DNA from: a virus
Taxonomy: Duplodnaviria; Caudoviricetes
DNA length: 64,000 bases
Reading direction: 5' to 3' (one strand)
IMG/VR virus record: IMGVR_UViG_2513237120_000001
Coordinates: 2,467-66,466 of that record
This document shows positions 1,996 to 59,284 of this stretch, piece after piece. The position numbers were made by a program, and so were the translations under genes. Each line of letters starts with the position of its first letter. The stretch's first letter is position 1. The notes below the pieces were generated by a model. The model saw nothing but the letters and a program-made list of their open reading frames with translations, made no database searches and was not told the origin of the DNA.

Positions 1996-2001
1996 CATTA
2001 C

Positions 2002-26367: not shown

Positions 26368-26381
26368 CCGGCCAGGAGAGG

Positions 26382-27875: not shown

Positions 27876-27893
27876 CCCAGGGAGGGGGCCCCG

Positions 27894-32604: not shown

Positions 32605-32607
32605 GCC

Positions 32608-32970: not shown

Positions 32971-32980
32971 GAGGCCCACC

Positions 32981-40075: not shown

Positions 40076-40158
40076 ACGGGGGCTCGCGCATCAACCTGGC
40101 CGGGGTGCGCGAGTCCCTCCACCATGTTCGGCCAGGATCTACGGCCAGGAGAAGGACG

Positions 40159-40767: not shown

Positions 40768-41141
40768 GGGTCTCACTCAAACGGTTCGAGGGCTGGGAGC
40801 CGGAGACCGTCACCGAGTACCGCTACGACGAGCACGGGCGCCTCACCGAGTCGGTCACCCGCTCCGATCCGGAGTGGGACGAGGAGCAGCAGGCGATCAT
40901 GGTCGCCCTCGCGGTGTGGCGGGACAACCGCTGCAACCAGTGCGGTGGGGACCTCGAAGAGACCACGTCCGAGGAGAACGACGGCACCCCCGGTCACGGT
41001 GCCTATTTGCCGTTGCTGCCGATCCGCTGCCACCGGTGCACCGCCCTCGCCAAATCGGAGGCGCACTACCGGGATTTGAAGGCCGAGCATCCGCATGCGC
41101 TGATCCACCGAGTCGAGCTCCACCCGCCCCGCATCGCCTAA
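40701..41141 (+). CDS. Tail assembly chaperone frameshift extension (GT) via a -1 slip at C CCT TTC
   Basis: X XXY YYZ heptamer 40701-40707 in the G frame; the -1 frame is open to 41141. Confidence 0.75.
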   Translation, partial: PFLVSRLEDPELRRRVEQAERLGVSLKRFEGWEPETVTEYRYDEHGRLTESVTRSDPEWDEEQQAIMVALAVWRDNRCNQCGGDLEETTSEENDGTPGHGAYLPLLPIRCHRCTALAKSEAHYRDLKAEHPHALIHRVELHPPRIA

Positions 41142-41150
41142 CCGGAGGGG

Positions 41151-46900: not shown

Positions 46901-47788
46901 ACCGCGCAGGCCTCCTCGACACGGACCGCAGTGTGGGCCCGGCAGGTGACCACACCTGGGGTGCAGACGGTCACGGTCGACGCGGTAACGGCCAACATCG
47001 ACCACTTCCTCACCGTCTTGGTGGTGTCGGGTGTCGTGATCGACTCTGGCCTGGACATCACCGGAAACTTCACCCTCGAAGCCGACCTCGATGTCACCGA
47101 CTGGTCTTCTGGTGCGACGCAGGCGATCGTCTCCAAATACCTCGGGACCGGGAACAACCGGTCCTACGGGATGTGGATCTCCGGGGCCGGGGCGCTTCAG
47201 GCGGTGTGGTCGACGGACGGCACCAGCGCTGGCCGGTCCATCATCTCCTCGGCGACGCCGGTCCCGGCCCGCGCGGCGGGTGTGCGGGTCAGTCTCGACG
47301 TCGACTCCGGATCAGACCATACGGTCGTGTTCTCGTACCGGGAAAGCGACGCCGACGACTGGACCGTATTCGATACGCAGGTGATCGCCGGAGTCACCTC
47401 CGTGGATGCCGGGACGGCAGCGCTGGAGATCGGCGCCCACTCCGGCGGTACCGCGGACCCGCTCGCCGGGACCGTGCGGGCCGTCCGGGTTTACTCGGAC
47501 GGCACGTTGATCGCGGATGTCCGACCCAACGCGCAAGCCATCGGCGCGACGTCGTTCACCGATGAGGACGGGCGGGTGTGGACGGTGCACGGGTCCGCCG
47601 CGATCGCATCCCTGGAGACGATCGACCTCGCTATCGGCGGTGAGGTCGTCACCGCCACATCGATCTCCGGTGCTTCGTCCCCGCAGACGTTCACCGTGAC
47701 CAGGTCCGTCAACGGCATCGCCAAGAGCCATCCGTCCGGGACTGCGGTCGCGTTGGCGCACCCGATGATCCTCGCGATGGGAGATTGA
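43952..47788 (+). CDS. Large minor tail/receptor-binding protein with lectin-like (LamG) modules
   Basis: 1278 aa after tape measure; YWPLED, WHTVAV, FTLEADL...IVSKY motifs. Confidence 0.75.
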   Translation: MVFPQDVLDLTVELALDADLTADPSTWVWTDITDFVEPRINITGVGKSDEQTKASSAKATLSVDNTDGRFVRRNPLSPYYGQLRKGTPIRVTASDGVIDPSVRFRGFIAELPPNWEGGYGDQWVEITASGVLRRLDQIDITDSALKRFVLGTTKLRAYWPLEDSSGATSGASAIPGQNPTWANGSTEDVSWASASDLPGSGSLPSLGEGAQIGARINGGTAAAWIVALAAKGELDSDSSDGEWLYARIELTGTGVYYVVIGTDDSVRVRMIDSDTGATVTEVDTATLLGTLNLIGNWHTVAVAASGGTGNVTFSVFIDGRLGATLGVTGTGRSVGRVDRIYYPHIFDSADIQSMQVGHITVWTNVGLVLSTDDIWRVASYHDAAMGYAGETAGDRIRRVCAEESIPCEVIEGVVVGNLPASTKMGPQEPASIGALLEAAASADEGLLYEDPATGGIAYLARSALYERAVDTPAMILDIDEGDITSDFEVEDGDQFTVTDMTVSRSGGSSSRYTAVPEGEVPYPRSITLDLASDGATWHHASWGVHMGTVDEYRYPVIELDLGSRPELIPAWVACGVGSRITIDHPPPGHPPDELDLIIIGYSEILDGVDWKVRLNCAPARPYQMGQLPGTLTTVSEGFEDSTLAFTVTDGGNAAWTRTQDDAHRGSWSWRSGVIADSESSDAIVTVPAGCTRVKFWYRVSCDGGFDFFRVIVGGVTRLEDSGVSGWIQSGYIDVTPGGTVTFRYIKNSSRALFGDRVYVDDIQFEGGTGTIDNGRSRLDTAGSELASSVDADGTTMVVATTQGPIWVSDLSGLVLPGTAGSYASTPHTVASDITAAAGFDAAGSDPAVAPSVTATVPGLLVCAWTGSVTDGTYTIPGSMTQVAEQQGTFYGPSTVAIEAVTAGATGTRSATAGGAHDWSAASVVLPGATVEDTVWDTAVNAGISVGTAAAETGWWVIAVHAAGWDGPDAMGPPDGSWDLIADSTAQASSTRTAVWARQVTTPGVQTVTVDAVTANIDHFLTVLVVSGVVIDSGLDITGNFTLEADLDVTDWSSGATQAIVSKYLGTGNNRSYGMWISGAGALQAVWSTDGTSAGRSIISSATPVPARAAGVRVSLDVDSGSDHTVVFSYRESDADDWTVFDTQVIAGVTSVDAGTAALEIGAHSGGTADPLAGTVRAVRVYSDGTLIADVRPNAQAIGATSFTDEDGRVWTVHGSAAIASLETIDLAIGGEVVTATSISGASSPQTFTVTRSVNGIAKSHPSGTAVALAHPMILAMGD

Positions 47789-48774: not shown

Positions 48775-48960
48775 GTGGCCGAAGTACACGACTGGCACCT
48801 GCTCGACGCCGAGCGAGGCCTCGAGGTCCGCCAGACCACGCCTGATGGCGAGGGGAACTGCTGGGAGGTCCGATGCCCGGACGGGCGCGTCGAAGTCCTC
48901 GATGACGACGAGTTCGAGCAGTTGCGCTGCGAAGGACCCAACCCGAAGGGGCTGGACTGA
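48775..48960 (+). CDS. Small hypothetical protein
   Basis: RBS GAGGAGA before GTG; TGATG coupling to the lysin. Confidence 0.6.
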   Translation: MAEVHDWHLLDAERGLEVRQTTPDGEGNCWEVRCPDGRVEVLDDDEFEQLRCEGPNPKGLD

Positions 48961-50093
48961 TGGCGATGGGCTCGTCCTACATCTCCCCCGCGATCGAGCG
49001 GGTCTGGCTCGGCGCCAAGCAGACGATCCCTGGTGTCCGGCTCGGCGGGATCTTCGCCCGGAAACGCGGCTACCACAACACCCGCCGAAACAACCAGGCC
49101 TCCTGGCCTGGCGACTACTCGATTCGCCTGTCGATGGACAAGCAGGGGTCGGCGACGCTCGCCGCGGCGATCGACCTGACCATGTCCACCACGGAGATGA
49201 AGAAACGCACCGCCTACCTGCGCCGGTCCGCGCTCGATGCGCGGGATGACCGACTCCGGTGTCTGCGGGAGTTCATCGGCACGCTCAACGGCAGGCGGGT
49301 GTTCTGCCTCATCGGGGGGAACGCCGGGCTCGGTGAGGGCCGCGGCGAGGAGGACTGGGGCCGGGATTCGTCCCACCTATGGCACGTCCACCTGAGCATT
49401 CTGCGTGCATTCGCTGCGGACTGGGCTGCGCTCGAGGGCATCGTGTCGGTCCTGTCTGGCGAATCGTGGGAAGCGTGGATCGCGCGCAAGGGCGGCTCAT
49501 CGGTTTCCAACGTCCCGACTCCGACGCTCCGCGAGGGCGACTCCGGGCCGGACGTGGCGGCGCTGCAACGCGCGCTGAATGAGGCGATCGGCGCTGGCCT
49601 CACCACTGACGGCGACTTCGGCCCCGCAACGGCTGCGGCGGTCCGGGTACTGCAAGAGCGCGCGGGCATCACCCGAGACTCGATTTACGGCCCGGCTTCG
49701 GCGCGGGCCCTGGCTGACCTACTGGAGGACGATATGAGCTGGGATGAAAAGATTCCCCTGGTCACGGGCCAGGGCGTCAGCTATTCAGGTAAGGAGTGGC
49801 CGGCGAGTTTCGTGCTCGCGTCGGGCCATTACTACACGCTGAAGTACGGGCAGACCGTTGTCGCCGAGCAGGCGAAGCAGACCGCGCTGCTCCAGGCGAT
49901 CGCCGCGGGCCAATCGGGGCTGACCGAGGAGGCTATCGCCGCCGCGGTCGCCGACGGTGTCCGTGCCGCAATCCCGCCGGTCTCCCAGATCGCCGAGGCG
50001 GTCGCTGCCGCGATCGACCACGACCTGGACACCGCCGCGGTCGCCGAAGCGCTGCGGGAGGTCCTCGGCGGGCTCGACGGGTCCGGCGAGTAG
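48960..50093 (+). CDS. Endolysin: Zn-peptidase-like catalytic domain plus PG_binding_1
   Basis: GYH...AIDL...HLWHVHLS; LREGDSGPDVAALQRAL...DGDFGPATAAAVRVLQ. Confidence 0.8.
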   Translation: MAMGSSYISPAIERVWLGAKQTIPGVRLGGIFARKRGYHNTRRNNQASWPGDYSIRLSMDKQGSATLAAAIDLTMSTTEMKKRTAYLRRSALDARDDRLRCLREFIGTLNGRRVFCLIGGNAGLGEGRGEEDWGRDSSHLWHVHLSILRAFAADWAALEGIVSVLSGESWEAWIARKGGSSVSNVPTPTLREGDSGPDVAALQRALNEAIGAGLTTDGDFGPATAAAVRVLQERAGITRDSIYGPASARALADLLEDDMSWDEKIPLVTGQGVSYSGKEWPASFVLASGHYYTLKYGQTVVAEQAKQTALLQAIAAGQSGLTEEAIAAAVADGVRAAIPPVSQIAEAVAAAIDHDLDTAAVAEALREVLGGLDGSGE

Positions 50094-50107
50094 TCGAGGG
50101 ATGTGGC

Positions 50108-50377
50108 GTGACGGATGAGGCGATCGGCCGCGAGATCCGGCAGCTCCGTGACGACATCAAGGACGACCTCGGGGAGATCAAGGGCGAGCTGGGGAAGCTC
50201 TTGCCGCGTGAGGTGTACACCGCGCGGCATGAGGCGCTCACCCGCCGGGTCGAGTCGCTGGAGCGCGAAGCGGAACTCGCTGAGACACGCCAGACCGCGA
50301 CCCGCCGGTGGATGGTGTCCGCTGTGGTGATCCCTCTGGTGTCGATGACGGTGATGATCATCCTGGCGGTGACATGA
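50108..50377 (+). CDS. C-terminally anchored coiled-coil lysis-cassette protein
   Basis: Coiled coil plus TM WMVSAVVIPLVSMTVMIILAV. Confidence 0.65.
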   Translation: MTDEAIGREIRQLRDDIKDDLGEIKGELGKLLPREVYTARHEALTRRVESLEREAELAETRQTATRRWMVSAVVIPLVSMTVMIILAVT

Positions 50378-51069
50378 GCAAGCTCGCGAAACGCCGCCTC
50401 GGGGACTGGGCGTGGGTCGGTATCGCGGTCGTGATCGCGATCTTGCTGGCGTGGACGCTGACGCAGGTGCAGCAGCAGGCCGACCGGATCGAGGCCCTCG
50501 CTGCCGCCCTGGAGGCGGAGCAGCAGGCGACCGAGGACCGGGGTGAGACGCCGGTCGCGCCGGACCCTGACGAGTTGATCGAGGACCCGGACGCGGAGGG
50601 CCCGCCCGGTCCTCCTGGCCCGCCGCCGACCGACGAAGCGGTGGCTGCCGCGGTCGCGGAGTATTTCGAGCAGCACCCGGTCGAGGACGGCGAGACACCC
50701 TCGCCCGCTGCAATCGCCGCCGCCGTCACCAACTATCTCGCCGAGCACCCACCGGAGCAGGGCGAGCCCGGCCCGCCCCCTACGGCGGGGCAGATCGCTG
50801 CCGCTGTCGAGGACTACCTGACCGTCCACGCCCCCTCCGATGGTGTGGACGGCGCGCAGGGTCCGCCCGGTCCACCGGGTGAGGACGGCGCCGATGGGGA
50901 GGACGGCCGGCCACCAACTCCCGAAGAAGTAGCCGCGGCGGTCGAGACCTACATCGAGGAGCACCCGCTCCCGCAATGCCCGGCCGGGACATCCGCTGAG
51001 GCCCTGACCGTATTGACCGTAGGCGCGCCGACCGAAATCGTCGGATGCGTCGTCCAAGAAGGAGAATGA
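50374..51069 (+). CDS. Membrane-anchored collagen-like repeat protein
   Basis: TM then GPPGPPGPP repeats and three AVAAAV(E/T)xY repeats. Confidence 0.7.
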   Translation: MSKLAKRRLGDWAWVGIAVVIAILLAWTLTQVQQQADRIEALAAALEAEQQATEDRGETPVAPDPDELIEDPDAEGPPGPPGPPPTDEAVAAAVAEYFEQHPVEDGETPSPAAIAAAVTNYLAEHPPEQGEPGPPPTAGQIAAAVEDYLTVHAPSDGVDGAQGPPGPPGEDGADGEDGRPPTPEEVAAAVETYIEEHPLPQCPAGTSAEALTVLTVGAPTEIVGCVVQEGE

Positions 51070-51070
51070 G

Positions 51071-51265
51071 ATGTCCGATACCACCCGAGCTGCGCTGTAC
51101 GGCGTCGCTACCGCGGTCCTGGCGCTGCTGTCGGTGCTGGGCTACGTGTCCGCTGACGAGCAGTCTGCTTACGCTGAGGCGGTCGCCCAGTCGCTGGTCG
51201 CGCTGGCGACGCTGATGGCTGCGGTGAAGACGTTCAAGCAGCGCGGCGACACCAAGGCCGAGTAG
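51071..51265 (+). CDS. Holin-like two-TM protein
   Basis: RAALYGVATAVLALLSVLGYV...LVALATLMAAV. Confidence 0.75.
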   Translation: MSDTTRAALYGVATAVLALLSVLGYVSADEQSAYAEAVAQSLVALATLMAAVKTFKQRGDTKAE

Positions 51266-51297
51266 CACTCGCCGCCGCGGGCGACCATCGCGGACGA

Positions 51298-51344
51298 GCC
51301 CGGTCGCTGCTCCCTCACAGGGGGTGGCGGCCGGGCGCTTTTCT
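51298..51344 (+). terminator. Intrinsic terminator after the lysis cassette
   Basis: GCCCGGTCGC/GCGGCCGGGC stem then GCTTTTCT. Confidence 0.55.
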
Positions 51345-51385
51345 GCGCTCTTGCGCGCCGTTGCACGCACTTATATGCCCACTAG

Positions 51386-51477
51386 TATCCCGGAGATTCC
51401 CGAGGTTTCCCGCCAATTCCCTACGTGCATGCAACACCATTACTTGCGTGTATGCATATTCCCTGGAAGAAATTCCC
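51386..51477. repeat. Helically phased WWTCCC repeats
   Basis: TATCCC 51386, ATTCCC 51396, TTTCCC 51406, ATTCCC 51416 (10-bp period), plus ATTCCC at 51458 and 51472. Confidence 0.55.
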
Positions 51478-51948
51478 AGCTCAATCAGGGTTTGTGTAGG
51501 TAATACATTTGCTTGTGTGCAACACCGGCGTTGCGCTGGGGTGTCACACCGGTGTGACATTCCGACGGGAGTCCATCCTTAATGCACGAGCATCGTCCGA
51601 TGTCCCACTCGAGAGACATTTATCCTCCGTTCGTACGAGGCCGTGACAGCTCAACATGACGCGTCACTATATACGCCGCTCGGTGGTACTCTTATCCGCG
51701 CGGGCCGCGTTGCGCAACTGCCGCCCGCAACCGTCCGGGGTAGCTTCCGGGCGATGAGTCTCCGGCCCGTCCGTTTCCCCGGCGGGCCGGAGAAATCCAT
51801 CCGAGGGGAAGCGAAGGGGAAACACCACGACCCACACCCCACCTGGCGAGGCCAGGCCCCCAGAGACGGAGAAGCCCGCCGCGAGCGGTCACTCGACGAC
51901 GGGCAGAGATCTCCGATTGCTTAGGAAATTACTAGTTCAGGAGATGTC

Positions 51949-52764
51949 TTGAACCATACCATCGTTTCGCGCGAGGAGCCGTATCACGGTGATAACAGCT
52001 CGCCGTTCGACCAGGTCAAACACACCGACGAGCATGGCAACGAGAACTGGACCGGCCGGTCCCTCCAGCCGCTCATGGAGTACTCCCGCTGGGAGGACTT
52101 CGCGACCGTCATCGAGAAAGCCAAGGATTCCCTGCGCCTCGTCGAAGGCCCCGAGCAGGCCGATCGTCACTTCGGCAAGTGCCGAAGTGACGGAGGGCGC
52201 TGGGGTAACCAGCAGATCGATGACTATCGCCTCACCCGGTTCGCCGCCTACCTCACTGCGATGGCCGGCGACGACACCAAGCGCGCCGTCGCCGAGGCCC
52301 GCATCTACTTCGCGGTCAAGACCCGCGAAGCCGAGGTACGAACCAATCTGACGGAGATCGAGGTGGCCCGCCGCTACCTCGCAGCACTGGAGTCCAAGCA
52401 GCAGCTTGAGGCTCAGGTGGCTGTCCTGGAGCCGAAGGCCGCAGTCGCTGACCAGTTCCTCGGCTCGGAGGACACGATCTACCTCAACGACCTCGCGAAG
52501 AATCTGAAGCTGACCAGGCACCGCCTGATCACGATCCTCCGCGACGAGGCGGTGCTGTACGCCGATGAACTCCAGTACCGTGCCGGCTTCGAGGACTGGT
52601 TCTGCGTCGAATGGGACTGGGTGTCCACGATCGGACAGCACAAGAAGGCGCTGAAGGTCACCCGGAAGGGGGTGCGGGCGATCTATGAGCTGTTGGTCGA
52701 GGGCGAGTGGATCAGCCCGGATCGGCGGCGCCCGACGCACGGGCCGCCCGATAACCGTCCCTGA
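51949..52764 (+). CDS. Phage antirepressor (DinD/Bro-N-like N-terminus + KilAC/ANT C-terminus)
   Basis: WTGRSLQPLMEYSRWEDF...YRLTRFAAYL; LEPKAAVADQFL...LNDLAKNL. Confidence 0.8.
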   Translation: MNHTIVSREEPYHGDNSSPFDQVKHTDEHGNENWTGRSLQPLMEYSRWEDFATVIEKAKDSLRLVEGPEQADRHFGKCRSDGGRWGNQQIDDYRLTRFAAYLTAMAGDDTKRAVAEARIYFAVKTREAEVRTNLTEIEVARRYLAALESKQQLEAQVAVLEPKAAVADQFLGSEDTIYLNDLAKNLKLTRHRLITILRDEAVLYADELQYRAGFEDWFCVEWDWVSTIGQHKKALKVTRKGVRAIYELLVEGEWISPDRRRPTHGPPDNRP

Positions 52765-52792
52765 CCTGGCTTTGTACTGACGCCAGTAAGAA

Positions 52793-52818
52793 GGCCCTGT
52801 CTCTTCGGAGGCGGGGCC
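52793..52818. terminator. Bidirectional terminator between convergent operons
   Basis: 11-bp stem with a C-TTCG-G tetraloop, A-rich 5' flank and T-rich 3' flank. Confidence 0.7.
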
Positions 52819-52828
52819 GTTTCGTCGT

Positions 52829-53119
52829 CTACGGCAGCGGGTCAGGCAGCGCCGACTCCATACCCGGAACGTCCTGGCATGCCCCGCACGGCACCAGCTC
52901 ATCTTCCTCGGTGTCAGGACCGATCCGCTCGGCGAGGCCGATCGGGTCGGTCCAGGAGAGGTACCCGGTGCTACCGCAGATGCGGCAGTTCTCGGACCCG
53001 GGGTAGGGGATCGGGATCTCGAAGCGGGCCTGAAGCTCGGCGGGGGGCGGCATGGGGGCGTTGTCGGTCATGCTGGTGTAACGATCGCAGCGCCCGCGCG
53101 GCACGGCCTCGTTCGTCAT
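52829..53119 (-). CDS. Small Zn-ribbon protein
   Basis: CRICGSTG...VPCGAC; ATGA coupling. Confidence 0.55.
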   Translation of the reverse strand: MTNEAVPRGRCDRYTSMTDNAPMPPPAELQARFEIPIPYPGSENCRICGSTGYLSWTDPIGLAERIGPDTEEDELVPCGACQDVPGMESALPDPLP

Positions 53120-53481
53120 GTCTCGGGGTAGATGATCCTGGCCCCGCACTCCTCGGCGGCCCGCCACGCGACCAGTTGATGCCACTCCGCCGACACCACC
53201 CGCTCCGGCCGGGACGCCCGATACGACTCGTCGGTCAGGTAGGTGACGATCGGGTTCTCCGGGCCGTGGACGGCGGCGAGGTCCGCTACCGTCTGGTCGG
53301 TGTAGGCGACGAGGTCGGCGAGCGCCTCAGCGTTCAGGCGGTAGATCGGCTCCCCCGCTTCCCATCTGGTGACCGTCCGCCGGGTGACCCCGATCGCCGC
53401 GGCGAGGCTGGTCACGGTGAGACCGAGGGATCGACGCAGGCAGAGCAGCCCAGCCCGGTTCATCTCCGACGGGTGCTGCAC
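53116..53481 (-). CDS. XRE-HTH protein, DUF1870/Aca2-YdiL-like (paralog 1)
   Basis: LRRSLGLTVTSLAAAIGVTRRTVTRWEAG...VTYLTDESY...SAEWHQLVAWR. Confidence 0.7.
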   Translation of the reverse strand: MQHPSEMNRAGLLCLRRSLGLTVTSLAAAIGVTRRTVTRWEAGEPIYRLNAEALADLVAYTDQTVADLAAVHGPENPIVTYLTDESYRASRPERVVSAEWHQLVAWRAAEECGARIIYPET

Positions 53482-53511
53482 TGCGGGCCCTTCCCATGTA
53501 GGTGTGTGGGG

Positions 53512-53796
53512 TCACGATAGCGCTGAGGCGTGTGAGGGGAAACCGCAGTCGTCGACCTCCAGGTCATCCACCGGCTCGGCGGCGGCCTCGAACGCGGAGG
53601 CGACCGCCCGAGCAGCGATGCCAGCGGGGCTCGTGTCGGTGTCGTCGAGGTCCAGCTCCACCCGGATCGTGGGCCTCCCGGCGAGGACGGCGGTGGCGAG
53701 CGCGCACAGCGCCGCCACGCGCGGGTCATCCGCGCCAGCCTCAGCAGTTTTCAGGTGGGTTTCGGCGCGGGCGGTGAGCTCGGTGTAGCGGGACAT
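53512..53796 (-). CDS. Hypothetical protein downstream of the traB-like gene
   Basis: TAATG coupling. Confidence 0.55.
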   Translation of the reverse strand: MSRYTELTARAETHLKTAEAGADDPRVAALCALATAVLAGRPTIRVELDLDDTDTSPAGIAARAVASAFEAAAEPVDDLEVDDCGFPSHASALS

Positions 53797-55787
53797 TACG
53801 AGTCCTCTCGGGTGGTGTACCGGCCCGGCGATACCCGCCGGATGCGGCCTTGGCTGTGCATGCGGGAGAGGGTCGGGGCGATCACGCCCGGGTCGGCCTG
53901 GTCCCCGGTGCCTGCGAGGGCTTCGGCGATGTCGGCGGCGGTCATCCCCTCCGGGCTGCTGGACTGCTCCAGTATGGCGGTGATCGCCTCGGGGCGGCGT
54001 CCCTCAGACGGGCCATTGCTCAGGTCGAGGCCGTTCGCCTTGGCGATCGCTTCGAGCTGGGACCGGACCGCGTCATACACCTCCCCGCCCTCATCAGGGA
54101 CTTCGCTGGTGTCGTCGCCATGGGTCAGGTAGGTCATCATCCGGTCGTCGACGAGCTGATGCCGGTTCGCGTAGGCAGCGCCCGCCGCGGCCAGACCCTC
54201 GGCCTCGGTGAGGCCACCCTGGACGAGATGCCGCCTGGCCCACGAGACATCGGCGATCGTCGCCCCATCATGCAGCCTGGGCTTCGACGGGTCGGTGGTC
54301 TGGATGTACGGCGCTTTCAGGTGGATCGGGTCGGCCTCGGACAGCAGGTAGAACTCGCCCCGGTGGTTGGGGACGGGGAGCTTGTAGTCGTTCGTGAGCC
54401 TCCCGGTCTCAGCCCAGTCCTTCGACCGGAACGCGTTGTTCACCGCGATGTTCGCAACGACATCGCCGCCGCGGTCGCCGAAATGGTCGACGGTCGAACG
54501 CTGGGTGGCGAGGTGGACGTTGACATCGCCGGAGGCGGCACCGCGCAGCTTCATCGACGCCAGCTGGGAGGCGGTCACCCACTCCCCCGCGAACCCGATC
54601 TGCTGCCGGGATTGGGCGACGAACGAGAACTCGTCGAGGAACACGATGATCTTGCGCCACTGCCTGCGGGACATAGGCTGGCGCTGGCGCCACCGTGCTA
54701 CTCCCATGGCCGCGGCCATCATCGCGAGCGTGTCGGTCTGGCCGTGCGCGACCCAGTCGATCGGCGGCCGGAGACCGGTGTTGTAGTACGGCTCCAGCCA
54801 CGGACCCACGAGGTCGTAGAGCTTCTGGACGCCACCGATCCACACGATCGCGTCGGTGCAGCGGGTGGCGTGCGCGAGCTTGAGGTTGATCAGGGAGGAT
54901 TTCCCGGACGTGGAGGATCCGATGTCCCTGGTGTGCTGGTCGAGCCGTTCGCGGTGCTCGCGGCCGTCGATCTCGACACCGACCAACGCGGGGACGGTGA
55001 TGCTCGTGGGCGTGGGGTCGTCGACGTAGAGGATGACTTCGGCCATGAGGTCCCGGTTGGTGACGGTGATCGAGTAGGCCCCAGCGGCGCGCTCTTTCCG
55101 GAGGCGGACCCAGTCGGACTCGACGCTGCGGCCGGTGATCTCCGCCAGGGCGATCGCGAGCGGCTCCATATGCTTCTGCGTCAGCTCAGCCTGGGCGCCG
55201 GCCCGCTCGCCCTTCGCAAGGACGGTCTTGGACTGGGTGCGGACGCGGAACTGCCAGCCCGCATCGGACCGGAGCGGTTCGGCTCCGGGCAGGACCCGCA
55301 CGAACCCGAGCCCGGCGCGCTTCAACGCGGCCTTGAGGACCTTCTCCTTGGTGCCGAGCAGCGCGTCGTCGTCCTCGGTCTCGGCGTGGGGCTTGGGCGG
55401 GGCGGTGGTGAGCCGCCACTCCAGGCCACGAGCGGACCAGTACACGCCGACGGACAGCAGCCCGAGCGCTATCACCATGATGATGCCGGACGTCCACGAC
55501 AGCGGCAGGAGCACGGCGGTGATCGTCCACGCCGCATACGCGATCGCCGAGGCGCTCGTCCCGATCCACACCTGCCTGCGCTGCCATTCAGCGGTACCCC
55601 GCCACATCGCGCACGCGTCGATGATGGCGTGACTGATCAGTACCGTCACCACCGCGAGCGCGGACGCGAGCGCGACCGCGAGCGGCATCCAGAGCAGCCC
55701 GGTCGCCCCTATGACGGCCAGTGCCAGCGACACGGCCGTGGCCGCGCCGACCCAGAACGTCTTCCACTCGATCACTGCCATCTCCAA
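53796..55787 (-). CDS. TraB/FtsK-SpoIIIE-like DNA translocase
   Basis: Four N-terminal TMs; Walker A GSSTSGKS; Walker B IIVFLDEFS; LATQR; C-terminal winged helix (MTAADIAEAL...TLSRMHSQGRIRRVSPGRY). Confidence 0.8.
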   Translation of the reverse strand: MEMAVIEWKTFWVGAATAVSLALAVIGATGLLWMPLAVALASALAVVTVLISHAIIDACAMWRGTAEWQRRQVWIGTSASAIAYAAWTITAVLLPLSWTSGIIMVIALGLLSVGVYWSARGLEWRLTTAPPKPHAETEDDDALLGTKEKVLKAALKRAGLGFVRVLPGAEPLRSDAGWQFRVRTQSKTVLAKGERAGAQAELTQKHMEPLAIALAEITGRSVESDWVRLRKERAAGAYSITVTNRDLMAEVILYVDDPTPTSITVPALVGVEIDGREHRERLDQHTRDIGSSTSGKSSLINLKLAHATRCTDAIVWIGGVQKLYDLVGPWLEPYYNTGLRPPIDWVAHGQTDTLAMMAAAMGVARWRQRQPMSRRQWRKIIVFLDEFSFVAQSRQQIGFAGEWVTASQLASMKLRGAASGDVNVHLATQRSTVDHFGDRGGDVVANIAVNNAFRSKDWAETGRLTNDYKLPVPNHRGEFYLLSEADPIHLKAPYIQTTDPSKPRLHDGATIADVSWARRHLVQGGLTEAEGLAAAGAAYANRHQLVDDRMMTYLTHGDDTSEVPDEGGEVYDAVRSQLEAIAKANGLDLSNGPSEGRRPEAITAILEQSSSPEGMTAADIAEALAGTGDQADPGVIAPTLSRMHSQGRIRRVSPGRYTTREDS

Positions 55788-55826
55788 TCTCGTAGCCCGG
55801 CGGCCAGTCGGCCGCCGGGCAGTGGG

Positions 55827-57314
55827 TTAGACCGACTCGTAGGCAGCGGCGGCCTGGCGGCGCTGCTCGGCGGTCTCCTCCAGGCGGGCGGCCTCGGCCA
55901 GGAGCGGCTCGGCGGCGGCGTCGTTGCCCTTCTGCTGCCATTCGTTGGCATGGGCGCGCAGGGCAGAGGCTTCCTCTTCTTTCGTGGTGGCTTCGGCGCG
56001 CAGCTTCTGTGCGGCGTCGCGGGTTGAGGCGCGGAACGTCTCGGTCGACGAGGCGTCGATCATGTGGGCGTACGGGTTATCGGTGCGGTCGGACATGGTT
56101 CTCCTTACGGTTGTTGGCTTGGGCGCCTTGGGTTTCGGTTGCTTCGGTGCGGGCGGCGAGATGAACCCGCCGTCGTCGACGTTCAAGAGCTTCGGCGCGG
56201 GCCGCGGCGCTGGCTTCCAGTTCGGGTCCGGCGCGATCGGGAATCCGGCGTCGTCGAACTCGAAGTCATCGGCGGGAGCGGGCTCCGGCTTCTTCTCGGT
56301 CTTGGCCTTCGGCTTGTCGGGCTTCTTCGCGCTGTTCTCCTTCTTCTTGTCCTGCTTGGACTTCTCGCCCTTGGTGTCGTCGCTCTTCTCGTCGGTCTTG
56401 GTGTCGTCGGACTTCTTGCGTCGCAACCACCGCCAGCGGCGCCTACCGCCCTCAGCCGTGGGCTTACCGTCGGCCTTCTCGTCGGCCTTCTTGTCGCTGG
56501 ACGGCTTCTTGCCCGAGTCCTTCTTCTCGCTCCTGCGCTTCCGCCACGCCTCCCGCTCGGCCTTCGCCGCGGCACGGCGCGGCCCGACCCATGTCGACGG
56601 GTTGGCGCGGCTGCGTGACCACCTGGCGCCGACGGCACCCGACGGCGCGGCCGACTTCGACCCGGCGCGGCTCCCGTGGGATCCGCCCGTGCCCGATGTG
56701 GCGCGTCGTCCGCGTGACCGTCCGGACGAGCCGCGCCCGCCGGAGCTGCCGCCCGCGTGGTTAGCGCTCCGGCGTCCGGTGCCGAGCCATGACCGGAGTC
56801 GCCCGGTGGGGCGTCCGGTGTGGCCGCCCGATCCGGCGGCCTGTCCGCTCGTCTGCGCCGATCCCTTGGCGGACCGTCCGGAGCCTCTGAGTCGTCCGAT
56901 CGGATTCCACCGCGATCCGCGTCCGCTCCCGGAGTCGTGCCCGCGTCCGCCGCGCTTGGACCGTCCGCCGAGACCGAGCCCGCGCGCGACTCCGGTGCGT
57001 CCGGTCGGGCCAGTCGTCCACGTGCGAGTGGTCCGGGTGGTGCGTCCGCTCCGCCGCTGCCACCATCTGGCGACCGCCATGATGACGAGCCCAGCGACAG
57101 CAGCGATCGCGGTGGCGATCAGCAGCCACACTGAGATCGACCACAGCACGATCACCAGCACGACGGCCAGCAGCGGCACCGCCCACCCCCACAGGCGCGA
57201 CGCAGGCACACCGCCCTGCTTCTTGTCGGTGGCGGCGGTCTCGCGCGCTGGCGGCTCCTCAGCGCGCTCCTTGGTCTCCTTGGGCGGCTTGACGCCGTCG
57301 AACAGGTCAGACAT
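55827..57314 (-). CDS. Spd-like membrane protein with long Gly/Arg/Lys/Pro-rich linker and a helical C-terminal module
   Basis: Two TMs; low-complexity middle; strong internal RBS AAGGAG before in-frame ATG 56096. Confidence 0.6.
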   Translation of the reverse strand: MSDLFDGVKPPKETKERAEEPPARETAATDKKQGGVPASRLWGWAVPLLAVVLVIVLWSISVWLLIATAIAAVAGLVIMAVARWWQRRSGRTTRTTRTWTTGPTGRTGVARGLGLGGRSKRGGRGHDSGSGRGSRWNPIGRLRGSGRSAKGSAQTSGQAAGSGGHTGRPTGRLRSWLGTGRRSANHAGGSSGGRGSSGRSRGRRATSGTGGSHGSRAGSKSAAPSGAVGARWSRSRANPSTWVGPRRAAAKAEREAWRKRRSEKKDSGKKPSSDKKADEKADGKPTAEGGRRRWRWLRRKKSDDTKTDEKSDDTKGEKSKQDKKKENSAKKPDKPKAKTEKKPEPAPADDFEFDDAGFPIAPDPNWKPAPRPAPKLLNVDDGGFISPPAPKQPKPKAPKPTTVRRTMSDRTDNPYAHMIDASSTETFRASTRDAAQKLRAEATTKEEEASALRAHANEWQQKGNDAAAEPLLAEAARLEETAEQRRQAAAAYESV

Positions 57315-57339
57315 GGGGTTCTTCTCCTTGGGTCTTGAG

Positions 57340-57420
57340 CGAACGAACGAACGCCTGGTAGGGGGTCTGGCCTGCACGAACACGAGCAGGTCCCCCACGT
57401 TCGGCGTGTTCGTTCGTTCG
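57340..57420. repeat. Long inverted repeat with tandem GAAC/GTTC units
   Basis: CGAACGAACGAACGCC ... GGCGTGTTCGTTCGTTCG with inner GGGGG..CCTGC/GCAGG.CCCCC pairing. Confidence 0.7.
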
Positions 57421-57428
57421 GATGCAGG

Positions 57429-57647
57429 TCACTGGGTCCGCCTCCCCACGGCGGCCCGCACCCACACGGCCCCTCGGAGCAGCAGCGCCCCGACGAGCAC
57501 GACGGTCGGCAGCGCGGCCACCGCCGCGTCGACGAAGGCGAAGATCAGGCCCGCGAACCCGGCAACGGGAACCGCGACCCCGAACACGATCAAGGGCACT
57601 CGACTCGGGTGGGCAACGGGCCGCGGCGTGCGGACTGGCGCGGTCAT
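57429..57647 (-). CDS. Small two-TM (Spd/mobile element transfer-like) protein
   Basis: VPLIVFGVAVPVAGFAGLIFAFV...LPTVVLVGALLL; ATGA coupling. Confidence 0.65.
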   Translation of the reverse strand: MTAPVRTPRPVAHPSRVPLIVFGVAVPVAGFAGLIFAFVDAAVAALPTVVLVGALLLRGAVWVRAAVGRRTQ

Positions 57648-59002
57648 GAGGACACCTCCCGTCCGGCGCGGATGGCCTCAGCGCGGGCGGACAGTTCGTC
57701 GACGCGTTCAGGGTTGGACTGCATCCACGAGTGGATCGCGGACTTCTTCCGGACACCGCTCACAGCCGCCTCGATGGCGCGGGCGCCCGGACGCTTCCCG
57801 GTGTCCGACCACAGCTGGACGATTGCTTCCTCAACGGCGGTGAAGTCCCCGGACGGGCGCGGCTTGGCGGGCGAGGGCTTCGCGGGCGCCTGCTTGGACG
57901 GACGCGCCTTCGGCGCGGACTCGATCGCTGGGGCGGGCTTGGACGCCGGACGCGGCTTGGCGGCAGGAGGCGGCTCGGCAGGTTTGCGCCGGAACGAGAG
58001 GCGGAACCGCCGGACAGGACGCTTCGCGGCCTTCACCGCATTGGCGGCAGCAGCCTGGGCGCGCTCGGCTTCCCAGGCGGCCAACTGGGCACTGTCAAGG
58101 GCGGACTCCAGGGCGGCCTGTGCCGCCTTCGCGGAGGCCATCGCCGAGCTGCGCATGGCGGCAACCTCGGTCCTTGCCAGGAGCCTGGCGGCACCAGAGC
58201 CGACACGGTCCCTGACGTCGAGGGACCAGGCCCGCCATGTCGACCGGGGGTAGCGGATCCACCGGCGCACCCCGAACCGCTCCGGCGGGTCCGGGATGAG
58301 TCCGAGTTTGCGGAGCGCGTCGCGGTGCTTGGCGCCGGAGCGGACCTCCCACACGATGATCGCCGCGAGAGAGGACGCGCCGAGGACTGAGGCCATGACC
58401 AGGTCGTCGCGGTGTGCGACGAAGTTGATCGCGGAGGCGAACCCTGCGGCGATCCACGTCATCGCCGCGGGAACCAGGGCGCGCTCGCCCTTCAGCCGCA
58501 ACTGGTGCGCGGTAAGCGCCATCGACAGCGCCAGGCCCTCCAGGAACACGGCCATGCCGATCCCGAAGATGATGGGCCAGCCGCGCTCGGTCGCCATGCT
58601 GATCTGCCCGTACACGGCCACATACAGGGCCATGGCGTAAATCCCGGATGAGTAGACCGCCGGGGCGTTCCCGGCGACGAACACGTAGACGCGCGTCGCG
58701 GCGGCCCTGGCGCGCTCGGTCCGCGCCTGACGGCGGGCGCGGCGCCGCTCAGCACGGCGGGCACGCTTAGCCTCGCGGTCCGCGGCCTTGGCTTCGCGCT
58801 CGATGCGCTCGATCTCGGCCTCACGGTGGCGCAACTCGATCGCGGACTCACGTTCACGGAGCCGCCGGGCGGACTCGGCATCACGCTCGGCGATGCGCGC
58901 CTCGGCCGCGCCGGTCCTCCGGGTGACCTTCGCGGCGGCCTTCGACTCGGCCTCGTGGGGCTGACGTTGTCCCGGGGGCGCTTGTACAGTGGTGGCATCC
59001 AT
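57644..59002 (-). CDS. SpdB/DUF2637-like multi-TM spread protein with C-terminal HTH
   Basis: Four TMs (AVYGQISMA...AVFLEGLAL...ASAINFVAH), RFGVRRWIRYPRSTWRAW, Pro-rich linker, RPGARAIEAAVSG. Confidence 0.7.
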   Translation of the reverse strand: MDATTVQAPPGQRQPHEAESKAAAKVTRRTGAAEARIAERDAESARRLRERESAIELRHREAEIERIEREAKAADREAKRARRAERRRARRQARTERARAAATRVYVFVAGNAPAVYSSGIYAMALYVAVYGQISMATERGWPIIFGIGMAVFLEGLALSMALTAHQLRLKGERALVPAAMTWIAAGFASAINFVAHRDDLVMASVLGASSLAAIIVWEVRSGAKHRDALRKLGLIPDPPERFGVRRWIRYPRSTWRAWSLDVRDRVGSGAARLLARTEVAAMRSSAMASAKAAQAALESALDSAQLAAWEAERAQAAAANAVKAAKRPVRRFRLSFRRKPAEPPPAAKPRPASKPAPAIESAPKARPSKQAPAKPSPAKPRPSGDFTAVEEAIVQLWSDTGKRPGARAIEAAVSGVRKKSAIHSWMQSNPERVDELSARAEAIRAGREVSS

Positions 59003-59092
59003 CGTCTGGTCCAGTCCATTCGGTGGCTAGAGAGCCTCGTCGGGTAGCGGCCCGCCGGGGCTTTCGTCGTTTCTGGGAGTCGTACTGTCCCT

Positions 59093-59121
59093 ATAGTATG
59101 TCTCACTGTGAGACATCGCTA
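59093..59121 (-). promoter_or_regulatory. Putative promoter/operator of the transfer operon
   Basis: -10 TACTAT (59098-59093); palindrome ATGTCTCAC-T-GTGAGACAT (59098-59116) in the spacer; -35 weak. Confidence 0.55.
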
Positions 59122-59284
59122 GGGGTGGGGCTGCACGGGTTCTTCTCCGTCGGGTTCCGGACACGCGAAAGGCCCCGCCGGAGCGGGGCCTGTGGCTGGC
59201 CGGCCTGCGACAACCAGGAGACCAGCCGTGGTCAGCCTACGCGGCCGGACTATCCCCGGCGGGGAGGCGGGGCCGGGTGTCGGC

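What the first reader, a model, noticed from the sequence alone, without database searches (positions are those of the whole stretch)
52829..59121. Complete-looking tailed prophage carrying a TraB-Spd conjugative transfer operon: possible phage with two transmission routes
Seen: one leftward operon with an SpdB/DUF2637-like protein, a small two-TM protein, a large anchored low-complexity protein and a TM-FtsK-winged-helix translocase, ending at a terminator at 52.8 kb. Knowledge: this set defines the dsDNA conjugation and intramycelial spreading system of Streptomyces plasmids and AICEs, where the operon normally continues into rep-xis-int. Those genes are absent downstream here; the only int, xis and replication genes in the window belong to the phage. 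Inference: the excised phage circle could move by TraB-mediated conjugation and spread through hyphae as well as by virions.
Basis: partly seen in the sequence, partly recalled or inferred. Interest (0 to 1): 0.82.

Follow-up and report, generated by a model that had tools for sequence, protein, structure and literature searches.

The report
Prophage with TraB DNA-transfer operon
A complete-looking 67.6-kb tailed prophage in a Glycomyces chromosome carries, inside its own attachment sites, the plasmid-type TraB/Spd genes that mycelial actinomycetes use to pump double-stranded DNA between hyphae, so it may spread by mating as well as by virions; related hybrids recur in other actinomycetes, and pZL12 is a studied precedent.

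Summary
Window 52829-59121 is one leftward operon. It encodes an SpdB2-like DUF2637 protein, a 2-TM peptide, a membrane-anchored low-complexity protein, a TraB-like translocase (4 TM helices, FtsK-fold motor, winged helix), a small protein and an XRE regulator.

attR lies right of the operon, outside the window at 66729-66772. A 44-bp tRNA-Lys repeat occurs exactly twice, and at least 7 congeners have an empty attB. Phage and operon are therefore one 67.6-kb insertion with a single integrase.

The linkage is not accidental. A 58.7-kb IMG/VR provirus is collinear (TraB 68%, SpdB core 80%). TraB relatives also sit in other virion-encoding units: a circular 59.4-kb Actinoalloteichus "plasmid", a 60.9-kb genome with terminal repeats, and 90-kb Streptomyces plasmids with terminase and capsid genes. 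TraB dN/dS is about 0.3.

I found no classical 8-bp clt array and no GntR Kor repressor. I did find a unique, conserved (GAAC)n hairpin that is a candidate cis site. Transfer itself is untested.

The closest precedent is the plasmid-phage pZL12. This is a new integrating, non-Streptomyces variant. Earlier notes of this scan reported similar modules on other DNA.

The parts
1..827 (-). 5' part of the tyrosine integrase gene. The whole gene is C7:2231-3829 (532 aa). It abuts attL and tRNA-Lys(CTT), which lie just left of the window at C7:2115-2188.
   Evidence: Pfam Phage_int_SAM_3 and Phage_integrase. tRNA-Lys found by ARAGORN. The 44-bp att core occurs at C7:2145-2188 and C7:69731-69774, which is window 66729-66772, beyond the window's right end.
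1265..2453 (.). Lysogeny switch: a leftward XRE/cI-like repressor (1265-1882), a rightward Cro-like HTH (2002-2247) and an Xis-like MerR-type HTH (about 2244-2453).
   Evidence: ORF translations, read by eye. No family search was run on these genes.
12402..14983 (+). Phage replication initiator and primase/helicase.
   Evidence: phrog_3171 and phrog_8064 replication initiation (E 5e-44); phrog_239 primase/helicase (E 4e-32).
25738..34162 (+). Packaging and head genes: a phrog_3678 protein (putative TerS by position), TerL 26382-27875, portal 27894-29612, MuF-like protein, protease, MCP 32981-34162.
   Evidence: phrog_38 TerL (E 1e-102), phrog_10963 portal (E 1e-119), head morphogenesis, protease and major head families.
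39560..47788 (+). Tail genes: major tail protein 39560-40075, tape measure 41151-43952, 1278-aa tail protein 43952-47788.
   Evidence: phrog_2491 (E 1e-33), phrog_1533 (E 1e-95), phrog_5313 (E 2e-170).
48960..52764 (+). Lysis cassette and antirepressor: lysin with PG_binding_1 (48960-50093), holin (51071-51265), ANT/KilAC (51949-52764).
   Evidence: Pfam hits.
52790..52822 (.). Hairpin between the convergent ANT gene and the transfer operon; a terminator-like site.
   Evidence: Sequence read directly. Fold z is only -0.7 and the terminator scan did not call it.
52829..53185 (-). Last ORF of the row, 118 aa, no known family.
   Evidence: GC3 0.82. No Pfam, NCBIfam or PHROG hit.
53116..53481 (-). 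XRE/Aca2-like HTH regulator at the 3' end of the operon; a candidate Kor-like repressor.
   Evidence: Pfam HTH_3 (E 8e-8), weak Aca2_YdiL. Homologues sit downstream of traB in G201 and G202 at 38-45% identity.
53512..53796 (-). 94-aa protein whose start overlaps the traB stop.
   Evidence: Homologues follow traB in G202 (58%) and in the Stackebrandtia soli contig (48%).
53796..55787 (-). TraB-like dsDNA translocase (P0001): 4 TM helices, FtsK-fold ATPase, C-terminal winged helix.
   Evidence: Conserved motifs; AlphaFold model; Foldseek to the FtsK motor; phrog_31069 FtsK/SpoIIIE-like (E 3e-8); dN/dS 0.29-0.36 against the G201 and G202 copies.
55827..57398 (-). Membrane-anchored low-complexity protein (P0002). 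The probable true start is ATG 57314, preceded by the RBS AAGGAG.
   Evidence: Translation; sequence. C-terminal homologues sit upstream of traB in G201, the S. soli contig, G205 and G210.
57340..57420 (.). Candidate cis-acting site (clt-like, or an mRNA hairpin): arms CGAACGAACGAAC / GTTCGTTCGTTCG with 55 nt between them, and an inner G5/C5 stem.
   Evidence: Found (I20). Unique in the 5.7-Mb genome. Fold z -4.9. Conserved at the same place in G201 and directly after traB in the S. soli contig, with one compensatory pair. Absent from distant TraB relatives.
57429..57647 (-). 72-aa two-TM protein (P0004).
   Evidence: Translation; GC3 0.89.
57644..59002 (-). SpdB2-like spread protein (P0003): coiled coil, then 4 TM helices (DUF2637), then a C-terminal domain.
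   Evidence: Pfam DUF2637 (E 1.2e-9); translation. The core is 80% identical to the G201 SpdB and to the SpdB of the host's own AICEs on C24 and C12. Core dN/dS is 0.19-0.25.
59098..59116 (.). Perfect 19-bp palindrome ATGTCTCACTGTGAGACAT in the operon's promoter region; a candidate operator.
   Evidence: One match in the window even allowing up to 3 mismatches; 0.01 expected by chance. Sequence context.
59165..59192 (-). Strong GC hairpin plus T-run that ends the upstream (Aca2-controlled) operon, so the transfer operon is a separate transcription unit.
   Evidence: Sequence read directly; inverted repeat I25.

Best explanation
The window holds most of a 67.6-kb temperate siphophage integrated in tRNA-Lys(CTT) of a Glycomyces chromosome. 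In the accessory arm between the lysis genes and attR, this phage carries a working copy of the actinomycete dsDNA transfer and spreading machinery as part of its own genome.

Proposed mechanism:

1. The operon has its own promoter with a 19-bp palindromic operator (shown). It is probably repressed by the XRE-type HTH protein encoded at its 3' end, a Kil-Kor-like arrangement (inferred).
2. When the operon is derepressed and the phage's Int/Xis excise the circle, the membrane-anchored TraB hexamer binds a cis site on the phage DNA through its C-terminal winged helix. The best candidate for that site is the unique (GAAC)n inverted-repeat element at 57340-57420.
3. TraB then pumps the unprocessed double-stranded circle into a neighbouring hypha. 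The SpdB2-like protein, the 2-TM peptide and the anchored low-complexity protein carry the DNA across septal cross-walls.
4. In the recipient the phage integrase reinserts the circle at attB.

The element would thus have a non-lytic, contact-dependent route in addition to virions.

Shown: gene content, motifs, fold, att boundaries, the single insertion, recurrence in other phage genomes, and purifying selection. Inferred: expression, excision, the identity of the cis site, and the transfer itself.
For: Boundaries:
- The 44-bp att core occurs exactly twice and encloses both the phage and the operon.
- At least 7 congeners have the empty site, with obg and tRNA-Lys directly followed by the right flank.
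- Only one integrase is present, and no plasmid-type rep gene was found.

Identity:
- TraB motifs, model and the FtsK-motor fold match.
- DUF2637/SpdB2-like architecture, matching the description of SpdB2 in PMC4447253.

Integration into phage genomes:
- Provirus G201 is collinear from the replication genes to the right arm, with TraB at 68% and the SpdB core at 80% identity. It uses different TerL, portal and MCP families.
- G202 shows TraB-small protein-HTH-holin-lysin-tail-TMP.
- pGBA129-24a is a circular 59,408-bp record with a serine recombinase, TerS, TerL, portal, MCP, TMP, lysin, holin and a TraB homologue.
- G205 is circularly permuted, with both contig ends inside the operon, and has Int, GntR, TerL and MCP.
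- G210 has a 141-bp terminal repeat and carries Spd-TraB, Int and TMP.
- In all, 14 IMG/VR contigs carry this TraB family.
- A Streptomyces anulatus 89.7-kb circular plasmid has GntR-NUDIX-TraB-like-KilB next to terminase and capsid genes.

Selection and exchange:
- dN/dS is 0.29-0.36 for TraB and 0.19-0.25 for the SpdB core.
- The host's canonical AICE shares an 80%-identical SpdB core with the phage.

Candidate cis site:
- It is unique in the genome and conserved with this TraB clade only.

Precedent:
- pZL12 transfer needs a major tra gene plus two neighbouring genes (PMC3583192).
- pZL12 encodes phage particle proteins (PMC4487206).
Against: - There are no functional data of any kind.
- No classical array of direct 8-bp TRS repeats was found near traB or anywhere in the element. 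The (GAAC)n hairpin may simply be an mRNA structure.
- No GntR/UTRA Kor repressor and no NUDIX (Pif-like) gene were found in this element, although both are typical of characterised systems.
- TraB is so divergent that Pfam FtsK_SpoIIIE and NCBIfam do not recognise it.
- Among 50,697 sequenced phage records only distant FtsK-like genes match. The module is therefore rare in phages isolated as virions.
- At 67.6 kb the element is 7-9 kb longer than its TraB-bearing relatives. Whether it still fits its capsid is unknown.
Confidence: 0.55

Rival explanations
1. The module serves the lytic or lysogenic infection cycle rather than mating. After a virion injects DNA into one hyphal compartment, or after induction, TraB and the Spd proteins move phage genomes across cross-walls into neighbouring compartments of the same mycelium. 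This enlarges the burst or the lysogenised territory. There would be no transfer to other individuals.
For: Thoma et al. 2015 (PMC4447253) proposed exactly this for the SpdB2 homologues of phiC31 and VWB. FtsK/SpoIIIE-like genes also occur in virulent Streptomyces phages that cannot be conjugative elements (PMC13587820; Hiyaa, Gilgamesh, P1312 and PIS136). Glycomyces is mycelial (general knowledge).
Against: In plasmids the same proteins perform both primary transfer and spreading, so the two roles are hard to separate. In this element the operon sits in the lysogeny-side accessory arm, has its own operator and points against the late genes. That is not the layout of an early or late lytic function.
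Confidence: 0.22
2. The operon is a moron that benefits the lysogen or the prophage in some other way. It might provide entry exclusion against incoming AICEs, plasmids or phages. It might mobilise chromosomal DNA. It might hijack or help the host's resident AICEs, which share its SpdB.
For: The operon lies in the accessory region next to an Aca2-controlled cassette and a DddA-like toxin. Its SpdB core is 80% identical to that of two AICE copies in the same genome. No clt array was found.
Against: The full set of four transfer and spread genes is kept together in diverged phages, with intact ATPase motifs. An exclusion function would not need an active translocase with a DNA-binding winged helix.
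Confidence: 0.12
3. The right arm is the decaying remnant of an AICE that once sat in tandem at the same tRNA-Lys site and fused with the prophage by deletion of the inner att, int and rep genes. Under this reading the genes are passengers on their way to loss.
For: AICEs use tRNA att sites and tyrosine integrases (PMC3218068). The host carries related AICEs. This TraB is found in only 2 of 33 Glycomyces species genomes.
Against: There is no internal att copy. All seven ORFs are intact with high GC3. dN/dS is about 0.3. The same junction (lysis genes, HTH, TraB, SpdB) is conserved in G201 and G202 at only 68-69% TraB identity. TraB relatives also lie inside circular or DTR-bounded phage genomes.
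Confidence: 0.06

Closest known systems
pZL12 / phiZL12, Streptomyces plasmid-phage (Zhong et al. 2010, J Bacteriol 192:3747; not held here, cited through PMC3583192 and PMC4487206). Look-alike 86-99-kb circular Streptomyces plasmids include S. anulatus NZ_CP108377.1.
   Same: One replicon encodes both tailed-virion genes and an actinomycete FtsK-type tra locus with neighbouring spread genes. A dual life style has been proposed, and for pZL12 partly shown: a transfer locus was mapped and plaques and virions were observed. Those details come from my memory of the abstract. Only the transfer-gene requirement and the phage particle genes are confirmed.
   Different: pZL12 is an autonomous ParAB plasmid of about 90 kb in Streptomyces. 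The present element is chromosomally integrated at tRNA-Lys, has no par genes found, is 67.6 kb and sits in Glycomyces. Its TraB is only about 27% identical to the S. anulatus pZL12-like protein over the ATPase. It has no GntR, NUDIX or KilB genes, all of which that plasmid carries.
TraB/clt/Spd conjugation and spreading system of Streptomyces plasmids (pSVH1, pIJ101, pJV1, pSN22)
   Same: The domain order of TraB is the same: about 130 aa of N-terminal membrane part, an FtsK-like motor and a C-terminal wHTH. The SpdB2-like protein has a coiled coil followed by 4 TM helices. Small membrane proteins sit in the same operon, and a repressor is coupled to the operon.
   Different: No array of 8-bp TRS repeats was found. 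The only candidate site is a (GAAC)n inverted repeat, closer in style to the inverted plus short direct repeats described for the pIJ101 clt (PMC3583192). The regulator is XRE-type, not GntR. The replicon is a phage.
AICEs (pSAM2, SLP1, pMEA300 type), including the host's own AICE at G000:C24:345.4-354.3 kb
   Same: Integration is in the 3' end of a tRNA gene by a tyrosine integrase, and the element carries Tra plus Spd genes. The SpdB core is 80% identical to the host AICE's SpdB.
   Different: The AICE is about 9 kb and follows the canonical order GntR-SpdB-Tra-PrimPol-AAA_25-Int. The present element has a different TraB lineage, phage-type replication genes and about 40 kb of virion, lysis and lysogeny genes.
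pGBA129-24a (NZ_CP016078.1), Actinoalloteichus sp. GBA129-24, annotated as a plasmid
   Same: Global order is the same: recombinase, early and replication genes, TerS/TerL/portal/MCP, tail, lysis, then an oppositely oriented arm with the TraB homologue (34% identity over the ATPase).
   Different: It has a serine recombinase and was recorded as a free circle. No DUF2637 homologue was detected by tblastn. It comes from a different family, the Pseudonocardiaceae.
SpdB2 homologues of phiC31 and VWB, and 'FtsK-like DNA translocase' genes annotated in isolated actinophages (Hiyaa, Gilgamesh, P1312, PIS136)
   Same: Single components of the transfer machinery are encoded by actinophages, and a role in spreading phage DNA has been suggested (PMC4447253).
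   Different: As far as the evidence cited here shows, those phages carry a single component. The present element has the contiguous SpdB-2TM-anchored protein-TraB-regulator operon. Identity to these phage translocases is 27-30% over the ATPase only.

Membership tests
TraB-type (FtsK-like) conjugative dsDNA translocase | FtsK/SpoIIIE-type RecA-fold motor with Walker A, Walker B and the ATQRP-like motif | tested here: met
   Invariant G290/G295/K296, D385/E386 and Q429/R430 in 15 homologues. Foldseek top hits are FtsK motors at E about 1e-9. Pfam PF01580 and NCBIfam do not reach E 0.01, so this is a divergent subfamily.
TraB-type (FtsK-like) conjugative dsDNA translocase | N-terminal membrane-anchoring region | tested here: met
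   The AlphaFold model has four long helices at residues 8-128 made of hydrophobic sequence.
TraB-type (FtsK-like) conjugative dsDNA translocase | C-terminal winged helix-turn-helix that reads the clt repeats | tested here: inconclusive
   The model shows H597-608, H617-626, H633-645, E649-653 and E656-659, a wHTH topology, at pLDDT about 80. No structural match restricted to this domain was run, and DNA binding cannot be tested here.
TraB/clt/Spd conjugation system | A cis-acting clt locus with clustered short repeats recognised by the cognate TraB | tested here: inconclusive
   No 7-9-mer array rises above the GC-rich background outside the low-complexity coding repeats. One candidate exists: the unique (GAAC)n inverted repeat at 57340-57420, conserved with this TraB clade in G201 and S. 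soli. It could equally be an RNA hairpin.
TraB/clt/Spd conjugation system | An SpdB2-like spread protein (coiled coil, four TM helices, C-terminal domain) encoded with traB | tested here: met
   DUF2637 at E 1.2e-9. Sequence architecture, compared with the SpdB2 description in PMC4447253.
TraB/clt/Spd conjugation system | A GntR-type TraR/KorA repressor forming a kil-kor pair with traB | tested here: not met
   None of the searched ORFs, in the window or out to attR, has a GntR/UTRA hit. An XRE/Aca2-like HTH protein at 53116-53481 and a 19-bp operator are present instead. GntR/UTRA regulators are present in the phage relatives G204 and G205 and in the host AICE.
TraB/clt/Spd conjugation system | Demonstrated traB-dependent transfer and pock formation | not testable with these tools
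   This needs mating experiments.
AICE (actinomycete integrative and conjugative element) | Int, Rep and Tra modules in one att-bounded element (Ghinet et al. 2011, PMC3218068) | tested here: inconclusive
   Int and Tra are present. Replication genes are present but phage-type (phrog_3171, phrog_239), not RepSA, RepAM or Prim-Pol. The element also encodes a full virion, which no described AICE does.
Temperate tailed phage (Caudoviricetes prophage) | TerL, portal, HK97-type MCP, tail, lysis and lysogeny modules inside att sites | tested here: met
   Whether the prophage can be induced or its DNA packaged cannot be tested here.
Phage-plasmid | Extrachromosomal maintenance in lysogeny (plasmid replication and partition genes) | tested here: not met
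   The element is integrated between attL and attR in the chromosome. No ParA/ParB was seen among the ORFs searched.

The most novel reading that the evidence does not exclude
This is a self-conjugative integrated prophage: a chromosomally integrated, virion-producing tailed phage that also transfers itself as naked double-stranded DNA through its own TraB pump. It would be one member of a widespread but unrecognised class of actinomycete phages spanning Glycomycetaceae, Micromonosporaceae, Pseudonocardiaceae and Streptomycetaceae. T4SS-based conjugation detectors and Pfam both miss this class. [quoted passage not shown]
Probability: 0.4. Interest if true: 0.8.

Novelty: new variant of a known kind. 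Interest (0 to 1): 0.6.

Why it matters
Phages and conjugative elements are treated as separate transmission strategies. [quoted passage not shown] The one-protein TraB system is small enough, about 6 kb with its helpers, to fit in a capsid-limited genome. That makes mycelial actinomycetes the natural place for a true dual-route element.

If the module works, such phages could lysogenise neighbouring hyphae without killing the donor. They could bypass receptor-based host range and adsorption-level defences. They could also mobilise chromosomal DNA in antibiotic-producing actinomycetes.

Practically, the finding gives a defined, testable system: clear att sites, an empty attB in relatives, a single operon and a candidate cis site. 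It also shows that annotation pipelines miss this TraB subfamily entirely.

Tried and rejected
1. **A third, internal att copy** that would split the island into prophage plus AICE. blastn-short of attL and attR against the whole genome found none.
2. **A classical clt array.** I ran exact and 1-mismatch 7-9-mer cluster scans over the whole element, and around traB in G201 and G202. Only the coding repeats of the low-complexity gene stand out.
3. **Scanning metagenomes for the (GAAC)n hairpin.** More than 120 hits came back. The 80 loci fetched are contigs of about 52% GC, mostly from one seawater assembly, with no homologue of any island protein.
4. **Close relatives of the phage found through its tail protein** in IMG/VR. 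None found. megablast of the structural region against 50,697 phage records gave no match.
5. **Our TerL in the TraB-bearing IMG/VR records.** No match. Their TerL, portal and MCP belong to other PHROG families, so the link between TraB and virion genes is modular rather than one clonal lineage.
6. **Genome-contig relatives of TraB** (Micromonospora, Salinispora, Kutzneria plasmid, Nocardioides MAG). These show GntR, ParA and SpdB neighbours and no homologue of my reference virion proteins within 10 kb. The family therefore also lives on ordinary plasmids and AICEs.
7. **G203.** Its integrase lies between the portal gene and the TraB region, so that contig may be a prophage next to a separate element. 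I do not count it as support.
8. **Closed or unavailable resources.** The look-up of encoding contigs and the look-up of sequencing runs were closed, so the contexts of the 60-78% identical metagenomic TraB homologues, the excision junction reads and expression could not be examined. The pZL12 paper itself is not held.

Full report
**Where the window lies.** The window is G000:C7:3003-67002 of a 5.7-Mb, 70% GC genome in 44 contigs. The neighbouring Obg protein clusters at 90% identity or more with 'GTPase ObgE [Glycomyces tarimensis]'. Named relatives of the key protein come from Glycomyces rutgersensis and Stackebrandtia soli. The host is therefore a Glycomyces, a mycelial actinomycete (the last point is general knowledge).

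**The observation.** In 70% GC DNA a raw ORF list is dominated by shadow frames, so I called genes by third-position GC. From about 2.8 to 52.8 kb nearly all genes run rightward. From 52.8 kb to the window's end they run leftward.

- P0003 (57644-59002) hits DUF2637. It has a 100-residue charged coiled-coil region, four hydrophobic helices and a C-terminal domain. That is the architecture Thoma et al. describe for SpdB2 (PMC4447253).
- P0004 (57429-57647) has two TM helices.
- P0002 (55827-57398) has a TM pair followed by Gly/Arg/Ser-rich and Lys/Asp/Glu-rich low complexity. Its likely true start is ATG 57314, behind the RBS AAGGAG.
- P0001 (53796-55787) gets no Pfam, NCBIfam or PDB sequence hit and only phrog_31069 'FtsK/SpoIIIE-like'. 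An alignment of 15 homologues keeps Walker A, Walker B and the FtsK-type ATQR motif invariant. An AlphaFold model (pLDDT 73) shows four N-terminal TM helices, an alpha/beta ATPase and a C-terminal winged-helix topology. Foldseek ranks FtsK motor domains first (E about 1e-9), followed by the TcpA coupling protein.
- After traB come a 94-aa gene, an XRE/Aca2-like HTH gene and a 118-aa ORF.

The operon starts behind a strong terminator hairpin of the upstream operon (59165-59192) and a unique perfect 19-bp palindrome (59098-59116). It ends at a modest hairpin facing the antirepressor gene. The description and the coordinates are correct.

**The prophage.** PHROG and Pfam searches identify the following genes:

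- a tyrosine integrase, a cI-like/Cro-like/Xis region, a RecE-like exonuclease and HNH;
- a replication initiator, a primase/helicase and a methyltransferase;
- a phrog_3678 protein (putative TerS by position), TerL, portal, MuF-like protein, protease and MCP;
- a major tail protein, a tape measure protein and a 1278-aa tail protein;
- a lysin, a holin and an antirepressor.

I saw no broken gene. 'Complete-looking' is a fair description.

- tRNA-Lys(CTT) lies at C7:2115-2188, directly before the integrase.
- Its last 44 bp recur exactly once, at C7:69731-69774. That is window coordinate 66729-66772, 2.7 kb beyond the window's right end. The tRNA's terminator hairpin is also repeated there.
- There is no third copy.
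- Left of attL is obg. Right of attR are two unknown genes followed by phoU and pstS.
- In at least seven other Glycomyces species the obg-tRNA-Lys segment is followed within about 200 bp by the homologue of our right flank. Nothing there resembles either end of the element.

The 67.6 kb is thus a single insertion with one integrase, and it contains both the virion genes and the transfer operon. Between the operon and attR lie only an Aca2-controlled cassette, a DddA-like deaminase gene, an HTH_31 regulator and small ORFs. There is no second int, xis or rep.

**Is the linkage accidental?** The same genome supplies a control. At C24:345.4-354.3 kb there is a canonical AICE in the order GntR/UTRA, DUF2637 SpdB, a Tra protein with textbook GxxGxGKT / IDE / ATQRP motifs, Prim-Pol, AAA_25 and a tyrosine integrase. 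A second copy starts at the beginning of C12. Its SpdB core is 80% identical to the phage's, but its Tra protein belongs to a different lineage. This points to module exchange between AICEs and the phage.

Relatives of the phage's TraB occur on plasmid-like DNA:

- the S. soli 29-kb contig with DnaB, ParA and an integrase, at 52-54% identity;
- a roughly 19-kb plasmid concatemer in G112;
- Micromonospora, Salinispora and Kutzneria loci with GntR and ParA neighbours.

They also occur repeatedly inside phage genomes:

- IMG/VR provirus 2923443038_000001 (G201, 58.7 kb) is collinear with our element from the replication genes to the right arm. It has TraB at 68%, the SpdB core at 80%, the same HTH after traB, and homologues of the tail protein and lysin. 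Its TerL, portal and MCP belong to different PHROG families.
- G202 shows TraB (69%)-small protein-HTH-holin-lysin-tail-TMP-major tail.
- More distant TraBs (30-35%) sit in G204 and G205 together with TerL, portal, MCP, TMP and a divergent GntR/UTRA regulator.
- Both ends of the G205 contig fall inside the low-complexity gene of the operon, so it is a circularly permuted assembly of one molecule that also holds an integrase.
- G210 (60,911 bp, 141-bp terminal repeat, CheckV 100%) holds Spd-anchored protein-TraB, an integrase and tail genes.
- The complete circular 59,408-bp 'plasmid' pGBA129-24a of Actinoalloteichus is in fact a full temperate phage genome. It has a serine recombinase, WhiB, DnaB, SSB, RusA, TerS, TerL, portal, MCP, TMP, lysin and holin, with a TraB homologue in the arm beyond the lysis genes.
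- A circular 89.7-kb Streptomyces anulatus plasmid has GntR-NUDIX-TraB-like-KilB next to terminase and capsid genes.

TraB dN/dS among our copy, G201 and G202 is 0.29-0.36, and the SpdB core gives 0.19-0.25. A decaying AICE remnant is therefore unlikely.

**Features of a conjugation system that are missing or unclear.**

- I found no array of direct 8-bp repeats of the pSVH1/pJV1 kind.
- The one notable non-coding element in the operon sits in the 115-nt spacer before the low-complexity gene. Its arms are CGAACGAACGAAC and GTTCGTTCGTTCG, 55 nt apart, with an inner G5/C5 stem.
- It is unique in the 5.7-Mb genome and folds far better than shuffled sequence (z -4.9).
- It recurs at the same place in G201. 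In the S. soli contig it lies in a different place, directly after traB, with one compensatory change in the outer stem.
- It is absent from the distant TraB relatives.
- A site that travels with one TraB clade and can change position within the operon is what a cognate clt would look like. Its inverted plus short tandem repeats recall the description of the pIJ101 clt (PMC3583192). An mRNA hairpin is not excluded.
- There is no GntR Kor repressor here. The 3' XRE-type regulator and the 19-bp operator may replace it.

**What is known.**

- FtsK/SpoIIIE-like genes are routinely annotated in Streptomyces phages.
[quoted passage not shown] The original paper is not held, so further details are from memory.
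[quoted passage not shown] I found no paper describing a TraB-Spd operon in an integrated prophage.
- Earlier notes of this scan report similar modules in at least seven other genomes and also name pZL12 as the closest known element. These are AI notes. They agree with what I found independently but are not evidence.

**Verdict.** The structural inference, that the operon belongs to the phage, is supported by the att sites, the empty sites in relatives, conserved synteny and circular relatives. The functional inference is plausible but untested. The element is a new integrating, non-Streptomyces variant, with a highly divergent TraB, of a kind whose precedent is pZL12.

I put 0.55 on a working DNA-transfer and spreading module that moves the phage genome between hyphae. 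I put 0.22 on intramycelial spread only, 0.12 on another accessory role, and 0.06 on a decaying remnant.

Noticed in passing
G000:C24:345422-354262 (locus L058) and G000:C12:1-2400 (L059): The same genome holds a canonical roughly 9-kb AICE in the order GntR/UTRA, 166-aa protein, DUF2637 SpdB, FtsK-like Tra (P0077; missed by Pfam but with GSIPGMGKT, VVAIDE and ATQRP motifs), Prim-Pol, AAA_25 and a tyrosine integrase. A second, contig-truncated copy also exists. Their SpdB TM core is 80% identical in protein and about 80% in DNA to the prophage's SpdB, which suggests recent exchange of that segment.
   Followed up: partly
NZ_CP016078.1 (loci L055, L056): The record annotated as plasmid pGBA129-24a of Actinoalloteichus sp. 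GBA129-24 is a complete temperate phage genome in circular form. It has a serine recombinase, two WhiB genes, DnaB, SSB, RusA, TerS, TerL, portal, MCP, TMP, lysin and holin, and also encodes a TraB homologue. MOB-suite types it as 'non-mobilizable'.
   Followed up: partly
IMGVR_UViG_3300049173_000082 (G205; loci L042-L044): Both contig ends fall inside the low-complexity gene between the Spd-like gene and traB. The assembly evidently broke in that repeat-rich gene, and the contig is a circularly permuted whole molecule. This element also encodes a second translocase-like protein with an FtsK_gamma domain (7113-9101).
   Followed up: partly
window 62688-63620 (-): An ORF with a strong Pfam DddA-like double-stranded DNA deaminase toxin domain (E 6e-18) lies near the prophage's right end. 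It did not pass my GC3 filter. Another note of this scan covers it.
   Followed up: no
C7:2231-3829 (window ..827), integrase: The tyrosine integrase carries an insertion of about 100 residues rich in Cys/His pairs (repeated C..C/H motifs) between the N-terminal SAM-like domain and the catalytic domain. This is unusual for phage integrases.
   Followed up: no
window 8327-8339: A 13-nt match (GTTCGAGTCCCTG) to the T-arm part of the att core and tRNA-Lys occurs inside the early region. ARAGORN finds no tRNA there. It may be chance or a tRNA-like remnant.
   Followed up: no
G006:C55 (Stackebrandtia soli NZ_CBCRZX010000055.1; loci L018, L019): The 29-kb contig with the closest named full-length TraB (52-54%) combines DnaB, ParA, a tyrosine integrase, a Phd/YefM-like antitoxin and a member of phrog_3678. 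In our phage, phrog_3678 is the family that sits directly before TerL. The contig may be a fragment of a phage-plasmid rather than a plain plasmid.
   Followed up: partly
window 53796-55787 (P0001) and L058:4186-6309 (P0077): Neither TraB-type translocase is recognised by Pfam FtsK_SpoIIIE or NCBIfam at E 0.01. Surveys that define AICEs or conjugative elements by PF01580 or by T4SS profiles will therefore miss both the AICE and the phage-borne module.
   Followed up: yes
metagenome loci L089-L168: The pattern CGAACGAACGAAC-N40-70-GTTCGTTCGTTCG occurs on more than 120 separate contigs of about 52% GC. Most come from one seawater assembly (OWNT01) and two JGI samples. This looks like a dispersed repeat family of an unrelated organism.
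   Followed up: no
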